From the NCBI GenBank assembly GCA_902795215.1, contig CADBKG010000008.1, positions 8,749-72,748 of the forward strand: a stretch of DNA of 64,000 bases, read 5' to 3'. A program made the position numbers and the translations under genes. The notes beneath the pieces are model-generated. The model did not search any database, had not been told where the DNA came from, and was given only the letters and a program-made list of their open reading frames with translations. The stretch is from an uncultured Erysipelotrichaceae bacterium (GTDB lineage: Bacteria; Bacillota_I; Bacilli_A; RF39; UBA660). Below are positions 9,395-64,000 of this stretch, piece after piece; position 1 is the first letter of the stretch; every line of letters starts with the position of its first letter.

Positions 9395-9907
9395 CTAGTT
9401 ATAAACATATTCAACTATGCTTTTTGTATAATCATAATTTTTATATCCTCTGATGCAGTTTATAGTATCGTAGTTTTTTATAAATAAAGTTAGAGGAGTT
9501 CCAAAAGAGTAGTTTAAGTGCTCATCTAAGTGAGAGTCTGTACACTCGGCAGGTATGATTATTTCACTATTTCTAAGTAAGTTTAAGTCTTCGCTTGATA
9601 GTTTTTTAGTATCAACATATAGTATTTTAACTTCATAGTTTTTAGCGATTTCTTTTAGTACGGGTTTATAACTTTCACAAAACTCACAACCTGATTTACC
9701 GATTACTAAAAAGTTAATTTCATCTAAAGAAAGATAATTTTCTAAACTTGCATAATCTGATATTTCAATTATTTCACCTAGATTTTTCTCAGCTATATTA
9801 GATTCTACCTTGGTATTATTAGATGGTTTTTCATACTTAGTAAATGAATACCCAATTCTAGCAAGTATTAAACAAATAATAATTATAATAAAAACCTTTT
9901 TATTCAT
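9395..9907 (-). CDS. membrane-anchored thioredoxin-fold thiol:disulfide oxidoreductase
   Basis: It has an N-terminal hydrophobic anchor (FIIIIICLILARIGY) and the CxxC motif GKSGCEFCESYKPVL in a thioredoxin-like context. Confidence 0.65.
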   Translation of the reverse strand: MNKKVFIIIIICLILARIGYSFTKYEKPSNNTKVESNIAEKNLGEIIEISDYASLENYLSLDEINFLVIGKSGCEFCESYKPVLKEIAKNYEVKILYVDTKKLSSEDLNLLRNSEIIIPAECTDSHLDEHLNYSFGTPLTLFIKNYDTINCIRGYKNYDYTKSIVEYVYN

Positions 9908-59901: not shown

Positions 59902-60561
59902 ATGGAAGGAGAAAATCAAAAAAAACAAAAGAATAATAATACTGTTTTAGTAATTATTGCTGTTGCGACATTACTTGTAGCATTAGTAGGTGCAACATTT
60001 GCGTACTTTACTGCGACTGTTAATAACGAATCTGCACAAAGTATCGAAGTTACTACTGCAAGTCCAGCAACTTTGGAGTATAGATCTACAGATACTCTTG
60101 CATTAACAAATGCATCTCCAGGACCTGAAGCAACTAAAACCATGACATTCACTGTTAAAAATCCGCTTACAACAACTGATGGACAAAGTAATACAAAAAG
60201 TTACAAATATGACTTATATTTAACAAGTCTAACAGATGACTTTTCTGATGCTAGTGGTGGTCTAGAACAATTAATGCTTTCTGTTACTCAAACTACAGAT
60301 GGTGATTCTACTTTAAAAATTGGTAATACACCATTAACAATTAATTTAACAAATGGTACACAAGTTTTAGCAGCTACTAGATCAACTGATGCAACAATCC
60401 ATGGAAAAGATGTTGTTATTGAACAAGAAATTGCTCCTGGTGAAACACATACTTATAGTGCAACAATTGAGTTCAGAGATACTGACTCTAACCAAAATAG
60501 CAACCAAAATAAGACATATTCAGGTTATTTTGAAATTGCAAATGCTCAAACAGTTAATTAA
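59902..60561 (+). CDS. SipW-dependent-type signal peptide protein, TasA/camelysin-like matrix protein 1
   Basis: AAGGAGG RBS. The N-terminus ...VLVIIAVATLLVALVGATFAYFTATV carries the (G)(A/G)TFAYF(T/S) motif typical of SipW substrates. The mature part is Thr/Ser/Asn-rich and looks like a beta-protein. Confidence 0.8.
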   Translation: MEGENQKKQKNNNTVLVIIAVATLLVALVGATFAYFTATVNNESAQSIEVTTASPATLEYRSTDTLALTNASPGPEATKTMTFTVKNPLTTTDGQSNTKSYKYDLYLTSLTDDFSDASGGLEQLMLSVTQTTDGDSTLKIGNTPLTINLTNGTQVLAATRSTDATIHGKDVVIEQEIAPGETHTYSATIEFRDTDSNQNSNQNKTYSGYFEIANAQTVN

Positions 60562-60574
60562 TAATATATAAATA

Positions 60575-60598
60575 AAAGAAGAGAAATCTTCTTTTTTT
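60575..60598 (+). terminator. intrinsic terminator
   Basis: AAGAAGA-gaaa-TCTTCTT plus a T-run. Confidence 0.75.
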
Positions 60599-60600
60599 AG

Positions 60601-60629
60601 TTGCATTTTAGTTATGGTTTTGATATACT
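60601..60629 (+). promoter_or_regulatory. promoter of TasA-like gene 2
   Basis: TTGCAT (60601-60606), a 17-nt spacer, then TGaTATACT, an extended -10 (60621-60629). Confidence 0.6.
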
Positions 60630-60654
60630 TTTAATAGAGTAAAGGAGAATAGGC

Positions 60655-61329
60655 ATGGAAGAAAAAGAAGTAAAACAAACTAATGAAGTTAGCGAAGAGG
60701 AAAAAGATAAAAAGAAAAATAGAGCAATATTATTGATAATTGGTATTGCTACTGTATTAATTGCTTTAATAGGTGCAACATTTGCATTCTTTACTGCTCA
60801 AATTAATAATGTTAATGGAGATCAAAGTGTAATGGTAACAACTGCAACAGTTGAAGGTGTTATATATACATCAACTGATCCAATTGTATTAAATCATGCG
60901 ATGCCTGGAGATAGTGATGAAGGTACATTTACTATAGAAAATCCAAATACAACTGCAAGTGCTAAATATACAATTACATTTGTTCCTGATTTTGATAACT
61001 TTGTGCTTACTCCAACAGAACCAGGAGATACTAAAGAAGATATGGCTGGACAATTAATCTTAACAGTTACTGGCCCTGGAATAGTTGGACAATTTAGACA
61101 TGATTTCACTGATGGAGAGAACGCTACACCTCAACCAGTAGCGGAAGATATAGAAATACCTGCCAACGCAATGGGTAGCGCAGGTCACACATATACAGCT
61201 AATATCGAGTTTGTTGAAATAGATAAAAACCAAGATGCTAACAAATCTACTAATGAAAGATCTGTAAGTTTCTTTGGACACTTCGAAGTAACTCAAAAAG
61301 TTACAGCTCAAACAAGTAGTAATCCATAA
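60655..61329 (+). CDS. SipW-dependent-type signal peptide protein, TasA/camelysin-like matrix protein 2
   Basis: AAGGAGA RBS. The N-terminus is ...AILLIIGIATVLIALIGATFAFFTAQI. It is paralogous to 59902-60561 (shared blocks include TTA..., LNHAMPGD/LTNASPGP, FTIENPNT/FTVKNPLT, YTANIEF/YSATIEF). Confidence 0.8.
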   Translation: MEEKEVKQTNEVSEEEKDKKKNRAILLIIGIATVLIALIGATFAFFTAQINNVNGDQSVMVTTATVEGVIYTSTDPIVLNHAMPGDSDEGTFTIENPNTTASAKYTITFVPDFDNFVLTPTEPGDTKEDMAGQLILTVTGPGIVGQFRHDFTDGENATPQPVAEDIEIPANAMGSAGHTYTANIEFVEIDKNQDANKSTNERSVSFFGHFEVTQKVTAQTSSNP

Positions 61330-61356
61330 GATGACAACAATGTCATCTTTTTTTTG
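61328..61356 (+). terminator. intrinsic terminator
   Basis: AAGATGACA-acaa-TGTCATCTT plus T8. Confidence 0.8.
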
Positions 61357-61417: not shown

Positions 61418-62524
61418 ATGGTGAACACTATGAATAATAAAGGGGCGAGTTCTAGTTTTCTAACAAGTACTAGAATTAAGATAAATCGTATAAAAGATTC
61501 TTATATTTATAGACTCATTTCAAAGGTTCTATCTGTAATTGGAACGCTTGTATTAATATGCCTTATAATTATTGGTTCACTTATGTTTTACTTTAATGCC
61601 AAAGCCAAAGCTGCTGAAAAGCGTGGAATTAGTTATGTTCCTCCATTTGGATTATATACTATTATCAGTGGTAGTATGGAACCTAGTATTCACGTTTACG
61701 ATGTAGTTGTTTCAGTAAATGAAAAAGATTTGAGTAAGATAAAAGTGGGAGATATTATAACGTTTATTTCTACTTGGGATGTAAATTATGGTTTAACCGT
61801 TACACATAGAGTCGCAAGTGTGTCTAAGAATTCTTATGGGGAATACCAATTTACCACTAAGGGTGATAATAACCAAGATCCAGATGGTGCGGTTGTTACA
61901 CAACAAAATTTTGTAGGTAAGGTAGTTGCGAGACTGCCATATTTAGGTAGACTTCAATTCTTCTTAGCAACTAAGATGGGTTGGTTTATGGTAGTATTTA
62001 TTCCAGCACTTGGAGTAATAATTTATGATATGTTTAAAATATTTAAATTAATTGTATTAAAGAGACAAATCGATAATGTTGAAACATACGATGATCTTAA
62101 TACATTGCCAGCATATAATGAAGATGAATCTATTAATCAAACTGTTGAGGAGAGCATAACACCAGAAGAAAACAAGATAGAGGAAAACCATAAACAAAAA
62201 ATTATACCTATAAGACATAATCAAGAACAAGAAGAAATAAAAACAACAGTTAATTCAGACGAAAACATTAATATAATATATTCACCAAGCGTAGAACCTG
62301 CTAAAGAAGAAACTAATAATTCAATTGTAAATGATGTTCCAGAAGAAATTGTGCCAGTTGTTGAAAACAAACCAGTTATTAACAATGAAAATCCACTAGC
62401 AAGTTTAACGCCGGTTTCAACCAATAGTAATGAAAAAGAAACGGATGAAATAGAGTTGCCAGTAATGAATGGTAATGTAATGGCACCTAATGGAAGAAAA
62501 CCACTAGAAAGAAGAAAAAAATAA
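61418..62524 (+). CDS. sipW: signal peptidase I, SipW (archaeal/ER) type, with ~170-aa acidic C-terminal tail
   Basis: The catalytic Ser box is ISGSMEPSI and the His box is LTVTHRV (His instead of the Lys of P-type SPases). TKGDNNQDPD is present. Two TM helices flank the catalytic domain. A long Glu/Asn/Pro-rich tail ends in RKPLERRKK. Confidence 0.9.
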   Translation: MVNTMNNKGASSSFLTSTRIKINRIKDSYIYRLISKVLSVIGTLVLICLIIIGSLMFYFNAKAKAAEKRGISYVPPFGLYTIISGSMEPSIHVYDVVVSVNEKDLSKIKVGDIITFISTWDVNYGLTVTHRVASVSKNSYGEYQFTTKGDNNQDPDGAVVTQQNFVGKVVARLPYLGRLQFFLATKMGWFMVVFIPALGVIIYDMFKIFKLIVLKRQIDNVETYDDLNTLPAYNEDESINQTVEESITPEENKIEENHKQKIIPIRHNQEQEEIKTTVNSDENINIIYSPSVEPAKEETNNSIVNDVPEEIVPVVENKPVINNENPLASLTPVSTNSNEKETDEIELPVMNGNVMAPNGRKPLERRKK

Positions 62525-62546
62525 ATAAGTAAGAAGGTGAAAAGAT

Positions 62547-64000
62547 ATGAGCGAGCTTCCAAATAATAAAAACCTATTAGAAGCTATTGAAGCAGCGGAA
62601 AAAGAGCTTAAGAAACTTGAAAAATCAAAAACAAGATCTAAGAAAAATAAATATAAAAGAGTTTATAAAGCTGTTGATAACGCTTATAATCTTTTAAATC
62701 ATGAAATATATACAAAGGAAGAACTTGATAACCGAGAAGATTTAATATGGAAAGCTTTGAGAGATGACGACGATAAAGGGTTATTCTTATGGGTTACGAG
62801 ATTATTGCTTCTAGCATTGCTTCTTCTTGCTATAGTTGGAGGATATGCTTTTGTAACAAAAGTTCTTCATATAGGTGATGGAAGTATTCCAAATTTGAAT
62901 ATTGATACTGATGGTGATGGTATACCAAATATTAATATTGATTATAAAGGAAATGGAAAATTTGTGTTTAATATTGATACTAATGGTGATGGTATACCAG
63001 ATAAAAACCTTATGAATCAAGATTTAGATGGTGATGGAGTTTGTGATTTAAACTGTGATACAAATAAAGATGGATGGCCAGATATAAATATAGATTATAA
63101 TGGTGATGGAAAAGCTGATTTAAATATTGATACAAATAATGATGGAAAACCAGATATTAATTATGATTTTGATGGAGATGGAAGACCAGATGTTAATGTA
63201 GATACTAACAAAGATGGAAAACCCAATAAAAACTTAAAAAATCAAGATACCAATGGTGATGGTAAATGTGATTTAAATTGTGATACAAATAAAGATGGAA
63301 TTCCAGATGTAAATATCGATATAAATGGAGATAAAAAACCAGATATAAACATTGATACTAATGGTGATTTAAAACCAGATACAAACATCGACGTAAATAG
63401 CGATGGTAAGCCAGATATAAATGTAGATACCAATGGAGACGGAAAACCAGATAAAAATCCAATGAACCAAGATACAAACAAAGATGGCAAATGTGATTTA
63501 AATTGTGATGTTAATAAAGATGGATTCCCTGATACAAATATTGACGTAAATGGTGATGGCATACCTGATATTAATCTTGATAAAGATGGCGATGGTAAAC
63601 CTGATAAAAACATTGATACTAATGGAGATGGAAAACCAAATCAACAAGTCGAATACGGAGGAAACACATATGGTGACATCGGCGGCAAACCAGTTAATCC
63701 TGTAAACTATGATACTGATGGTGATGGTAAATGTAATATCAACTGTGACTATAATTATGATGGTATCCCAGATGTAAACATCGATATAGATGGAGATGGT
63801 AAACCTGATATAAACGTAGATACAAATGGAGATAAGAAACCAGACATTAATATTGATTACGATAAGGATGGAAAGCCAGATATAAATGTTGATACCAATG
63901 GTGATGGAAAGCCCGATAAAAATCCAATGAATCAAGATACCAACGGTGATGGTAAATGTGATTTGAATTGCGATAAAAACAAAGATGGATGGCCTGATAC
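62547..64000 (+). CDS. membrane-anchored thrombospondin-type-3-like Asp-rich (Ca2+-binding type) repeat protein, 3' end outside the window
   Basis: This gene is not in the ORF track because no stop is reached. It starts at ATG 62547 after AAGAAGGTGA. A ~90-aa cytoplasmic N-terminus is followed by the TM helix WVTRLLLLALLLLAIVGGYAFV. After that come uninterrupted D(T/I/V)(N/D)GDGKPD(I/K)N units with periodic NQDTNGDGKCDLNCD(T/K)NKDG(W/I/F)PD. Confidence 0.85.
   Translation, partial: MSELPNNKNLLEAIEAAEKELKKLEKSKTRSKKNKYKRVYKAVDNAYNLLNHEIYTKEELDNREDLIWKALRDDDDKGLFLWVTRLLLLALLLLAIVGGYAFVTKVLHIGDGSIPNLNIDTDGDGIPNINIDYKGNGKFVFNIDTNGDGIPDKNLMNQDLDGDGVCDLNCDTNKDGWPDINIDYNGDGKADLNIDTNNDGKPDINYDFDGDGRPDVNVDTNKDGKPNKNLKNQDTNGDGKCDLNCDTNKDGIPDVNIDINGDKKPDINIDTNGDLKPDTNIDVNSDGKPDINVDTNGDGKPDKNPMNQDTNKDGKCDLNCDVNKDGFPDTNIDVNGDGIPDINLDKDGDGKPDKNIDTNGDGKPNQQVEYGGNTYGDIGGKPVNPVNYDTDGDGKCNINCDYNYDGIPDVNIDIDGDGKPDINVDTNGDKKPDINIDYDKDGKPDINVDTNGDGKPDKNPMNQDTNGDGKCDLNCDKNKDGWPD
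62880..64000 (+). repeat. nested tandem repeats: ~27-30 nt units within ~230-nt super-repeats
   Basis: gatac(t/a/c)aatggtgatgg(t/a)aaacc(a/t)gat recurs throughout. The Cys-pair unit (ggtaaatgtgatttaaattgtgat) recurs near 63040, 63260, 63490, 63730 and 63950. Confidence 0.85.

What the first reader, a model, noticed from the sequence alone, without database searches (positions are those of the whole stretch)
62547..64000. Unannotated open-ended gene: TM-anchored protein made of nested thrombospondin-type-3-like DxDxDG repeats with one CDLNC cysteine pair per super-repeat
The ORF track lists only antisense ORFs here, but the + strand frame from ATG 62547 is open to the window end (>480 codons). 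After an N-in TM anchor, the sequence is an almost pure array of D(T/I/V)(N/D)GDGKPD(I/K)N nonapeptide-like units. These units are organised in ~75-aa super-repeats. Each super-repeat starts with (M/K)NQDTNGDGKCDLNCD(T/K)NKDG(W/I/F)PD, and at least five are visible. The DxDxDG spacing and the N-Q-D...GDxCD context resemble calcium-binding TSP type 3 repeats. The regularly spaced CxxxC pairs suggest disulfide or metal staples. The nearby membrane CxxC thioredoxin-like protein (9395-9907) could plausibly service these. Its position right after the TasA-like/SipW genes suggests a Ca2+-dependent cell-surface scaffold for the fibres. At DNA level the near-identical units are recombination- and slippage-prone, so copy number may vary.
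Basis: partly seen in the sequence, partly recalled or inferred. Interest (0 to 1): 0.6.

Follow-up and report, generated by a model that had tools for sequence, protein, structure and literature searches.

The report
Stalked TasA-like partner of SipW
This is a real 872-residue surface-protein gene of an uncultured low-GC gut bacterium: a distant relative of the biofilm-fibre protein TasA, encoded right after the fibre signal peptidase, with about 580 residues of calcium-loop-type repeats inserted as a spacer that sister species lack.

Summary
The + frame from 62547 is a real gene. It runs 388 codons past the window end, 872 aa in all, and stops just before a tRNA cluster.

Anatomy:
- a 78-aa cytoplasmic helical region;
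- a hydrophobic segment ending in GGYA|FVT;
- 43 units of 12 residues (not 9), D-x-[ND]-x-D-G-x-P-D-x-N-hydrophobic;
- nine units carrying a Cys8/Cys12 pair;
- a K/Q/S-rich linker;
- a 150-aa all-beta end domain.

The repeats fit the general Dx[DN]xDG calcium-loop motif. They fail the Pfam thrombospondin type 3 model (12 bits against a cut-off of 25).

The main result is what the gene is. Its end domain is homologous to proteins with SipW-type signal peptides (hhalign 99.5%). Through them it is related to the two TasA-like genes upstream (93%). Seven congeners keep a 270-280 aa orthologue without repeats directly after sipW, and another has 57 units. The array is therefore an inserted, length-variable spacer.

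The same repeat module flanks membrane anchors in hundreds of Firmicutes surface proteins.

Most likely function: an accessory subunit (initiator, anchor or cross-linker) of SipW-dependent fibres. Whether SipW cleaves it is unresolved.

The thioredoxin link and the DNA slippage idea are not supported.

The parts
62547..64000 (+). The first 484 codons of an 872-codon gene. The gene continues to window-equivalent position 65165 (contig C8:71295-73913).
   Evidence: Orthologues occur in the same genus.
62533..62539 (+). Ribosome-binding site GAAGGTG, 7 nt before the ATG. The gap after the sipW stop (62522-62524) is 22 nt, and no terminator lies between.
62547..62780 (+). Residues 1-78: a charged, helical, cytoplasmic N-terminal region (18 K+R, 17 D+E), conserved in the whole family.
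   Evidence: Alignment A5, 25-46% identity to ten orthologues. No Pfam or NCBIfam family found.
62781..62849 (+). Residues 79-101: a hydrophobic signal/anchor segment ending in G-Y-A, a predicted signal-peptidase site (A101|F102).
   Evidence: In 47 family members, position -3 is small in 45, -2 is Y or F in 47, -1 is small in 45 and +1 is F in 43. hhalign places this segment on the signal peptide of SipW-type proteins. The TIGR04088 model does not hit it.
62850..62903 (+). Residues 102-119 (FVTKVLHIGDGSIPNLNI): a short hydrophobic strand-like segment between the membrane segment and the array. It is positionally equivalent to the TasA donor strand.
   Evidence: Column correspondence. TasA donor strand residues 28-38 are described in PMC9674648. 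The equivalence is an inference.
62904..64000 (+). Array of 12-residue Dx[DN]xDGxPDxN-hydrophobic units. There are 43 in all, spanning residues 120-688. The part beyond residue 484 lies outside the window.
   Evidence: FG-GAP and EF-hand calcium-loop sub-matches only.
63042..63056 (+). First Cys8/Cys12 pair (CDLNC). Further pairs lie at 63267-63281, 63492-63506, 63732-63746 and 63957-63971, and four more lie beyond the window.
   Evidence: In 501 units of eight congeneric proteins, both Cys are present in 230, a single Cys in 2, and neither in 269.
63642..63710 (+). Irregular 23-residue interruption of the array (QQVEYGGNTYGDIGGKPVNPVNY). It is the source of a weak Ntox24 match.
61418..62524 (+). 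sipW: an archaeal/ER-type signal peptidase I with a C-terminal tail of about 150 residues.
   Evidence: TIGR02228 scores 101 bits against a cut-off of 51.85.
59902..61329 (+). Two TasA-like SipW-substrate genes (59902-60561 and 60655-61329).
   Evidence: TIGR04088 scores 19.9 against a cut-off of 19, and Peptidase_M73 gives E 8e-4 over nearly its full length. The two proteins are 34% identical to each other.
61328..61349 (+). Terminator-like hairpin plus T-run after the second TasA-like gene. sipW and the stalk gene probably form their own unit.
   Evidence: L009 1077-1098

Best explanation
The gene encodes an accessory subunit of the SipW-dependent, TasA-like fibre system encoded just upstream.

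Build, which is shown:
- a TasA-superfamily pre-protein with a signal/anchor segment, a short N-terminal strand and a jelly-roll core;
- an added 78-aa cytoplasmic N-terminal region;
- about 580 residues of 12-residue Dx[DN]xDG loops, inserted between the short strand and the core, which form a length-variable spacer.

Inferred:
- Each unit most likely holds one Ca2+, so calcium would stiffen the spacer.
- In nine units a Cys8/Cys12 pair replaces the usual Pro8/hydrophobic-12 contact and acts as an intra-unit staple (a disulfide or a shared metal site).

My lean, at about 55%: SipW cuts after A101 and exposes FVTKVLHI as a TapA-like donor strand. That strand plugs into a TasA-like subunit, while the protein's own core sits at the far end of the spacer. 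The protein would then start, tether or cross-link fibres at a set distance.

The main alternative, at about 35%, is that the N-terminal segment stays uncut as a membrane anchor. The core at the tip of the stalk would then be the cell-bound base that accepts the first fibre subunit.
For: Gene and context:
- The gene is complete and intact.
- It lies 22 nt after sipW with a good RBS and no terminator between.
- The same gene order, tasA-like, sipW, then this gene, occurs in eight congeners: G001 with a stalk and seven without.

End domain:
- With an alignment, AlphaFold2 gives the end domain pLDDT 92-98 as an all-beta sandwich.
- With the signal regions cut off, profile comparison of this family against proteins with SipW-type signals gives 99.5% (E 2e-23). 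Those proteins against the neighbouring TasA-like proteins give 93% (E 3e-7). Reversed-sequence controls score below 1% (full-length versions).
- An exhaustive HMMER search finds the distant relatives at E 1e-5 to 1e-3 for the whole library. Three of them and four of eleven neighbours give sub-threshold Peptidase_M73 hits.

Spacer:
- Orthologues carry 0, 43 or 57 units.
- The same module is found in at least 574 protein clusters. Of the best 120, 43 end in a TasA-like domain and 39 have the array within 80 residues of a C-terminal membrane or LPXTG anchor.

Calcium loop:
- D1, [ND]3, D5 and [DNE]9 are invariant in all 43 units.
- This fits the Dx[DN]xDG motif described in PMC3123361.

Cys pairing is all-or-none: 230 units with both, 2 with one, 269 with neither.

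The cleavage-site motif is conserved in 45 of 47 relatives.
Against: - There is no direct Pfam or NCBIfam hit of the end domain to Peptidase_M73, or of the N-terminus to TIGR04088.
- The direct profile comparison to the neighbours is weak, 14-16%.
- Foldseek against the PDB returns only weak, generic jelly-roll matches (best E 9e-4, TM about 0.2-0.3). TasA itself is not in the top 50, although the TasA-related CanA ranks tenth.
- The repeats fold with low confidence, pLDDT 36-59, and have no relative among solved structures. Calcium binding and rod shape are therefore inferred from the motif alone.
- DsbA-like, DsbB and VKOR genes were not found in this 93%-complete genome, so enzymatic disulfide formation has no known route.
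- A conserved 78-aa cytoplasmic region is unusual for a cleaved signal peptide.
Confidence: 0.6

Rival explanations
1. Uncleaved, membrane-anchored base. The N-terminal segment is a permanent type II anchor and the repeats span the wall. The distal TasA-like core only accepts a donor strand, so fibres are tethered to the membrane.
For: - The cytoplasmic region is long and conserved.
- TIGR04088 is not matched.
- The same repeat module sits next to retained C-terminal anchors in many other surface proteins.
Against: - The small/aromatic/small|Phe site is kept in 45 of 47 relatives. hhalign places it on the cleavage site of SipW substrates.
- The hydrophobic segment is no longer than those of the neighbouring substrates.
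Confidence: 0.3
2. Stand-alone stalked adhesin. The end domain is a lectin-like or ligand-binding jelly-roll displayed on a spacer, and it has no part in fibre assembly.
For: - Foldseek's best matches are MAM, carbohydrate-binding and lectin domains.
- The repeat module is used as a spacer in many adhesin-like proteins.
Against: - The link with sipW and the TasA-like genes is strict across the genus.
- The end domain shows profile homology to SipW-signal proteins over its whole length.
- The Foldseek scores are weak and generic.
Confidence: 0.08
3. True thrombospondin type 3 homologue. A calcium-wire domain of eukaryotic type serves as a Ca2+-dependent scaffold.
For: - It shares the DxDxDG spacing, Asn/Gln-Asp contexts and Cys near the loops.
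- One fragment gives a weak TSP_3 match at E 0.17.
Against: - TSP_3 is far below its cut-off and absent on the whole protein.
- There is no TSP C-terminal domain.
- phmmer finds no solved structure at all for the repeats.
- The unit is a uniform 12-mer, not the 13/23-residue thrombospondin pattern.
- Dx[DN]xDG loops are known to arise repeatedly (PMC3123361).
Confidence: 0.03

Closest known systems
TapA of the Bacillus subtilis tapA-sipW-tasA operon
   Same: Both are minor partners co-expressed with SipW. TapA's N-terminal strand complements TasA and starts the fibre, and it is found near the membrane or wall (PMC9674648, PMC10151520). The gene here is likewise coupled to sipW and carries a short hydrophobic strand after a signal-peptidase-type site.
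   Different: No sequence similarity to TapA was found. The gene lies after sipW, not before it. The end domain is TasA-like rather than a complete V-set Ig fold. It has a 78-aa cytoplasmic extension and a 580-residue repeat spacer that TapA lacks.
TasA / camelysin family (Pfam Peptidase_M73; PDB 5OF1, 5OF2, 8AUR) and the wider TasA superfamily of donor-strand fibres (AbpA, AbpX, CanA)
   Same: Both have a predicted jelly-roll beta-sandwich, a C-terminal motif of the form N-x-x-Q...F-x-x-x-h-x-h-E-A, a SipW-type signal region and a neighbouring signal peptidase I gene (PMC12518558).
   Different: The relationship is seen only through an intermediate family, 99.5% then 93%. No direct Pfam hit was found. 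TasA is not among the top Foldseek matches. No member described in the papers searched carries a repeat array between the N-terminal strand and the core.
Thrombospondin type 3 repeats (Pfam TSP_3; PDB 1UX6)
   Same: Both have tandem Dx[DN]xDG calcium loops with cysteines and no regular secondary structure.
   Different: It fails the family model. The unit is a uniform 12-mer. The Cys pair lies within one unit at positions i and i+4. There is no TSP C-terminal globe. The context is bacterial fibres.
Ser-Asp repeat (R region) stalks of staphylococcal MSCRAMMs (ClfA, ClfB, SdrC, SdrD)
   Same: Both are acidic, length-variable repeat regions placed between the anchor and the functional domain. In the MSCRAMMs this region is thought to carry the domain through the wall (established knowledge). 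The NCBIfam matches fall in that region.
   Different: The matches are compositional only (about 100 bits against cut-offs of 999-2500). Here the unit is a 12-residue calcium-loop motif, not an SD dipeptide.
Integrin/FG-GAP 'calcium blade' and EF-hand loops (Dx[DN]xDG class, PMC3123361)
   Same: The ligand positions 1, 3, 5 and 9 are identical, with Gly at 6. Pfam FG-GAP matches just these 10 residues.
   Different: There is no propeller blade and no helix-loop-helix around the loop. The loops are strung head to tail.

Membership tests
Thrombospondin type 3 repeat (PF02412) | Score at or above the Pfam gathering cut-off (25 bits) | tested here: not met
   No hit on the whole protein. The best fragment gives 12.1 bits, E 0.17.
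Thrombospondin type 3 repeat (PF02412) | Followed by the TSP C-terminal lectin-like domain | tested here: not met
   The end domain has no Pfam hit. Its relatives are SipW-signal proteins.
Dx[DN]xDG calcium-binding loop class | Linear motif D-x-[DN]-x-D-G with a further acidic ligand a few residues on | tested here: met
   All 43 units have D1, [DN]3, D5 and [DNE]9, and 36 of 43 have G6. The motif definition is in PMC3123361.
Dx[DN]xDG calcium-binding loop class | Actual Ca2+ binding | not testable with these tools
   This needs ITC, 45Ca overlay or a structure. The AlphaFold2 confidence for the repeats is low.
TasA / camelysin (Pfam PF12389 Peptidase_M73) | Direct match to the family model | tested here: not met
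   No hit for the end domain. The neighbours and the intermediate relatives reach only 16-21 bits against a cut-off of 22.5.
TasA superfamily (remote) | Profile-profile homology over the whole mature domain | tested here: met
   99.5% (E 2e-23) to the intermediate family, then 93% (E 3e-7) from that family to the neighbouring TasA-like proteins. The merged profile gives 75%. Reversed controls are below 1%.
TasA superfamily (remote) | Jelly-roll beta-sandwich fold resembling solved TasA-type subunits | tested here: inconclusive
   The model is a confident all-beta sandwich. Foldseek gives only generic jelly-roll hits: CanA ranks tenth, and TasA is not in the top 50.
TasA superfamily (remote) | Encoded next to a SipW-type signal peptidase I | tested here: met
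   sipW ends 22 nt upstream. The same order occurs in eight congeners.
SipW-dependent signal peptide (TIGR04088) | Match to the model at or above 19 bits | tested here: not met
   No hit for the N-terminus or for two orthologues at E up to 10. Motif-level conservation of a small-x-small|F site is seen in 45 of 47 relatives.
TapA | Sequence or profile similarity to TapA; donation of the N-terminal strand to TasA | not tested
   No Pfam, NCBIfam or PDB sequence hit named TapA.
FG-GAP repeat (PF01839) | Match over the whole 37-residue blade | tested here: not met
   Scores of 20-25 bits arise from 10-residue matches to the calcium loop only, profile positions 9-18.
MSCRAMM adhesins (NF033845 and related) | Score at the curated cut-off | tested here: not met
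   79-101 bits against cut-offs of 999-2500, confined to the SD-repeat region of the models.
Ntox24 (PF15529) | Score at or above 24 bits on the whole protein | tested here: not met
   27.1 bits on the window fragment but 19.3 on the full protein. The match covers the irregular Asp/Gly stretch at residues 384-426 and is compositional.

The most novel reading that the evidence does not exclude
The protein may be a donor-strand-exchange subunit that has been split in two. SipW would free an 11-17-residue donor strand, and a 580-residue spacer separates that strand from its own acceptor core. The spacer would be loaded with calcium and stapled by cysteine pairs. Such subunits could link fibres, or each other, over long and genetically tunable distances. 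The genus already shows spacers of 0, 43 and 57 units. This would give an elastic, calcium-responsive matrix of a kind not described for any bacterial fibre system. The conserved cytoplasmic leader left in the membrane after cleavage could have a role of its own.
Probability: 0.2. Interest if true: 0.75.

Novelty: new variant of a known kind. Interest (0 to 1): 0.55.

Why it matters
TasA-type fibres are a main protein scaffold of Gram-positive and archaeal biofilms. How they are started and held to the cell is known only for Bacillus subtilis TapA.

This locus shows a different and unannotated solution in uncultured gut Bacilli: a TasA-like partner that always sits after sipW. In some species it has acquired a long calcium-loop spacer.

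The natural series of orthologues with 0, 43 and 57 units gives a ready-made experiment on what the spacer does.

The 12-residue module itself has no Pfam family and no solved structure. Yet it occurs in hundreds of Firmicutes surface proteins, including proteins of Clostridioides difficile. Its fold and calcium response would therefore be of general use for annotating Gram-positive surface proteins.

Tried and rejected
- The word-based homologue search with the end domain found nothing. The exhaustive HMMER search was needed instead.
- The single-sequence AlphaFold2 model of the end domain was poor, pLDDT 49.
- Direct BLASTP of the end domain against the two neighbours was not significant.
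- Direct hhalign of the family against the neighbours gave only 14-16%.
- Profiles A1, A2 and A4 found no solved structure by sequence.
- The repeats found no PDB sequence at all.
- Foldseek did not single out TasA.
- The Ntox24 hit was rejected as compositional.
- The MSCRAMM hits were rejected as low-complexity matches.
- The TIGR04117 Cys-x3 radical-SAM target match on a paralogue was far below its cut-off.
- The first genome-contig scans gave an error and then nothing. The last one found only the G001 contig.
- The thioredoxin-like gene at 9395-9907 was rejected as a specific partner.
- DsbA-like, VKOR and DsbB genes were sought in the genome and not found.
- An assembly artefact was rejected. 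The gene has no exact repeat of 40 bp or more, and a sister species has an orthologous array.
Full report
**Observation**

The + frame from ATG 62547 is open for 484 codons to the window end. The window is contig C8:8749-72748 of a 1.34-Mb, 27% G+C, 93%-complete genome. On the contig the frame continues without interruption to 872 codons. Five tRNA genes behind a consensus promoter follow it. A GAAGGTG ribosome-binding site lies 7 nt before the ATG. The sipW stop is 22 nt upstream, with no terminator between them. A terminator-like hairpin follows the second TasA-like gene. I infer that sipW and this gene are probably one transcription unit.

**Anatomy**

- Residues 1-78 are charged and helical.
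- Residues 79-101 are hydrophobic and end in G-Y-A.
- Residues 102-119 (FVTKVLHIGDGSIPNLNI) are a short strand-like piece.
- Residues 120-688 hold 43 units of 12 residues with a 36-bp DNA period.
- Residues 689-718 are a K/Q/S-rich linker built on a 9-bp repeat.
- Residues 719-872 are a beta domain.

Within the units, D1 and D5 are invariant. Position 3 is always N or D, position 9 is always D, N or E, N11 is present in 41 of 43 units and G6 in 36. Position 8 is Pro in 33 units and Cys in 9. The units are grouped in super-repeats of 75 residues in the first half of the array and 63 in the second half. Each super-repeat has one unit in which positions 8 and 12 are both Cys.

The period is 12 residues, not 9. 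The DNA copies are not near-identical: they are 73-85% identical, and no exact repeat reaches 40 bp. This also makes an assembly artefact or rapid slippage unlikely.

**The repeats**

Pfam gives no thrombospondin type 3 hit on the protein. The best fragment reaches only 12 bits against a cut-off of 25. What does match is the 10-residue calcium loop inside the FG-GAP and EF-hand models. NCBIfam matches are to the Ser-Asp region of MSCRAMM models, far below their cut-offs. phmmer finds no solved structure, and AlphaFold2 gives the repeats low confidence.

The units fit the Dx[DN]xDG calcium-binding motif. That motif is known from at least a dozen unrelated structural contexts and is prone to arise independently (PMC3123361). 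The array therefore probably works like a string of calcium loops, but it is not shown to be a thrombospondin relative.

In 501 units from eight proteins of this genus, Cys8 and Cys12 occur together 230 times, a single Cys occurs twice, and neither occurs 269 times. In the units without Cys these positions are mostly Pro8 with Ile, Leu or Val at 12. The units are not independent, but the all-or-none pattern argues that the two positions touch within one unit. The contact could be a disulfide or a shared metal site. DsbA-like, DsbB and VKOR genes were not found in the genome.

**What the protein is**

An exhaustive HMMER search with the end domain finds only 26 cluster representatives. The close ones are 261-317-aa proteins. 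They have the same N-terminal region, membrane segment and end domain but no repeats. The distant ones (E 1e-5 to 1e-3 for the whole library) begin with SipW-type signal peptides such as GSYAFF.

With the signal regions removed, profile comparison gives these results (full-length versions):

| Comparison | Probability | E-value |
|---|---|---|
| This family against the distant proteins | 99.5% | 2e-23 |
| The distant proteins against the TasA-like neighbours | 93% | 3e-7 |
| Merged profile against the neighbours | 75% | 2.6e-5 |
| Reversed-sequence controls | below 1% | 0.09-0.36 |

The direct comparison of this family with the neighbours is weak. The neighbours themselves pass TIGR04088 and give near-full-length but sub-threshold Peptidase_M73 matches.

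With an alignment of 32 sequences the end domain folds as a confident all-beta sandwich, pLDDT 92-98. Foldseek returns only weak, generic jelly-roll hits. The TasA-related CanA ranks tenth, and TasA itself is not in the top 50. I conclude that the end domain is a remote TasA-superfamily member. My confidence in that is about 0.75.

**Comparative evidence**

In the genus, G001 has a 1094-aa orthologue with 57 units in the same operon. Eight genomes have 270-294-aa orthologues with no repeats. Seven of these have upstream flank on their contig, and in all seven the orthologue sits directly after sipW; TasA-like genes precede sipW wherever the contig reaches far enough upstream. In a tree of the end domains, the repeat-less forms make one clade (support 86/91) and the four stalked forms lie outside it. 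A single gain or a single loss would explain this pattern.

Other congeners carry different stalk proteins of 690-1745 aa. Their end domains differ, and some have a cadherin-like domain. One of them has 111 Cys-pair units. In this genome the gene is the only one with the repeats and the only one with this end domain. At least four more SipW-like genes and three more TasA-like genes exist elsewhere in the genome.

The repeat module is widespread. At least 574 protein clusters match at E 1e-10 or better, nearly all without a Pfam call for the repeats. Of the best 120, 43 end in a TasA-like domain and 39 have the array within 80 residues of a C-terminal membrane or LPXTG anchor. The latter include adhesin-like proteins of Clostridioides difficile, Beduini and Anaerotruncus. 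The module therefore recurs as a spacer next to an anchor or a terminus.

**Mechanism**

In B. subtilis, SipW cleaves TasA and TapA. TasA residues 28-38, directly after the cleavage site, form the donor strand. TapA starts fibres by giving its own N-terminal strand (PMC9674648, PMC10151520).

hhalign places the end of the hydrophobic segment of this family on the cleavage region of the SipW substrates. In 47 family members the aligned positions read (A/T)-Y-S|F-I. Position -3 is small in 45, -1 is small in 45, and +1 is Phe in 43. In this protein the site reads G-Y-A|F-V.

This favours processing by SipW. The repeat array would then lie exactly between the donor-strand-equivalent piece and the core.

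Three points argue against processing:
- The TIGR04088 model does not match.
- The 78-aa cytoplasmic region is conserved.
- Elsewhere the module sits beside retained anchors.

I put processing at about 55% and a retained anchor at about 35%. In both cases the protein is an accessory subunit of the fibres, and the array sets a distance.

**The remaining first-reader ideas**

The thioredoxin-like gene at 9395-9907 lies 53 kb away on the other strand. It has only sub-threshold matches. It is present in all congeners whether or not they have Cys-bearing stalks. No link is supported.

**Literature and earlier notes**

Full-text searches found no paper that describes a TasA-like protein with such a stalk. 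Sources name the close relatives 'hypothetical protein [Bacilli bacterium]'.

Earlier notes of this scan describe similar stalked TasA-like proteins in other genomes. They agree with this reading but are not independent evidence. None concerns this subfamily.

**Limits**

Calcium binding, the redox state of the Cys pairs, SipW cleavage and strand exchange are all untested.

Noticed in passing
window 61418-62524: SipW here is 368 aa. After the catalytic part and a second hydrophobic segment it has a polar, acidic tail of about 150 residues. The tail ends in a basic patch (RKPLERRKK) that recurs at the C-terminus of the orthologues in congeners (…KRKKL, …KKREK, …RRKK).
   Followed up: partly
L009:16676-19558 (contig C8:85675-88557, beyond the window): This is a second fibre-type locus. 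It holds a 202-aa TasA-like protein, a 380-aa polytopic membrane protein with a C-terminal S26 signal-peptidase domain (27 bits), and a 361-aa DUF5305 protein (58 bits).
   Followed up: partly
L009:4973-5491 (just beyond the window): A perfect extended sigma-70 promoter (TTGACA, 18 nt, TG-TATAAT) lies directly after the stalk gene. It precedes a cluster of five tRNA genes (Ser, Met, Asp, Phe, Arg).
   Followed up: no
L033:1327-6564 (genome G006): A 1745-aa paralogue in a congener is made almost wholly of CDxNCDxxGDGx units. 111 of its 115 units carry the Cys pair, giving 232 cysteines. A cadherin-like domain and a TasA-like end domain follow, next to a small S26 peptidase gene.
   Followed up: partly
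P0147, P0045: The same DTDGDGKPDINI module forms the segment just before the C-terminal membrane anchor of large adhesin-like proteins of Clostridioides difficile and Beduini massiliensis. No Pfam domain is recorded for it.
   Followed up: partly
L036 / G001 contig CAYOUK010000046.1: The public record of the sister-species contig is titled 'uncultured Muribaculaceae bacterium'. Close relatives of the gene are labelled 'Bacilli bacterium', and the genome content (SipW, TasA-like genes and FtsEX genes) fits Bacilli. The label looks wrong.
   Followed up: no
genome G000, contigs C1, C3, C7, C13: tblastn finds at least four further SipW-like genes and three further TasA-like genes in this 1.3-Mb genome. 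That is an unusually large share for such a small genome.
   Followed up: partly
residues 759 and 837 of the protein (beyond the window): The end domain has two cysteines that are not conserved in any aligned relative. They may form a lineage-specific pair.
   Followed up: no
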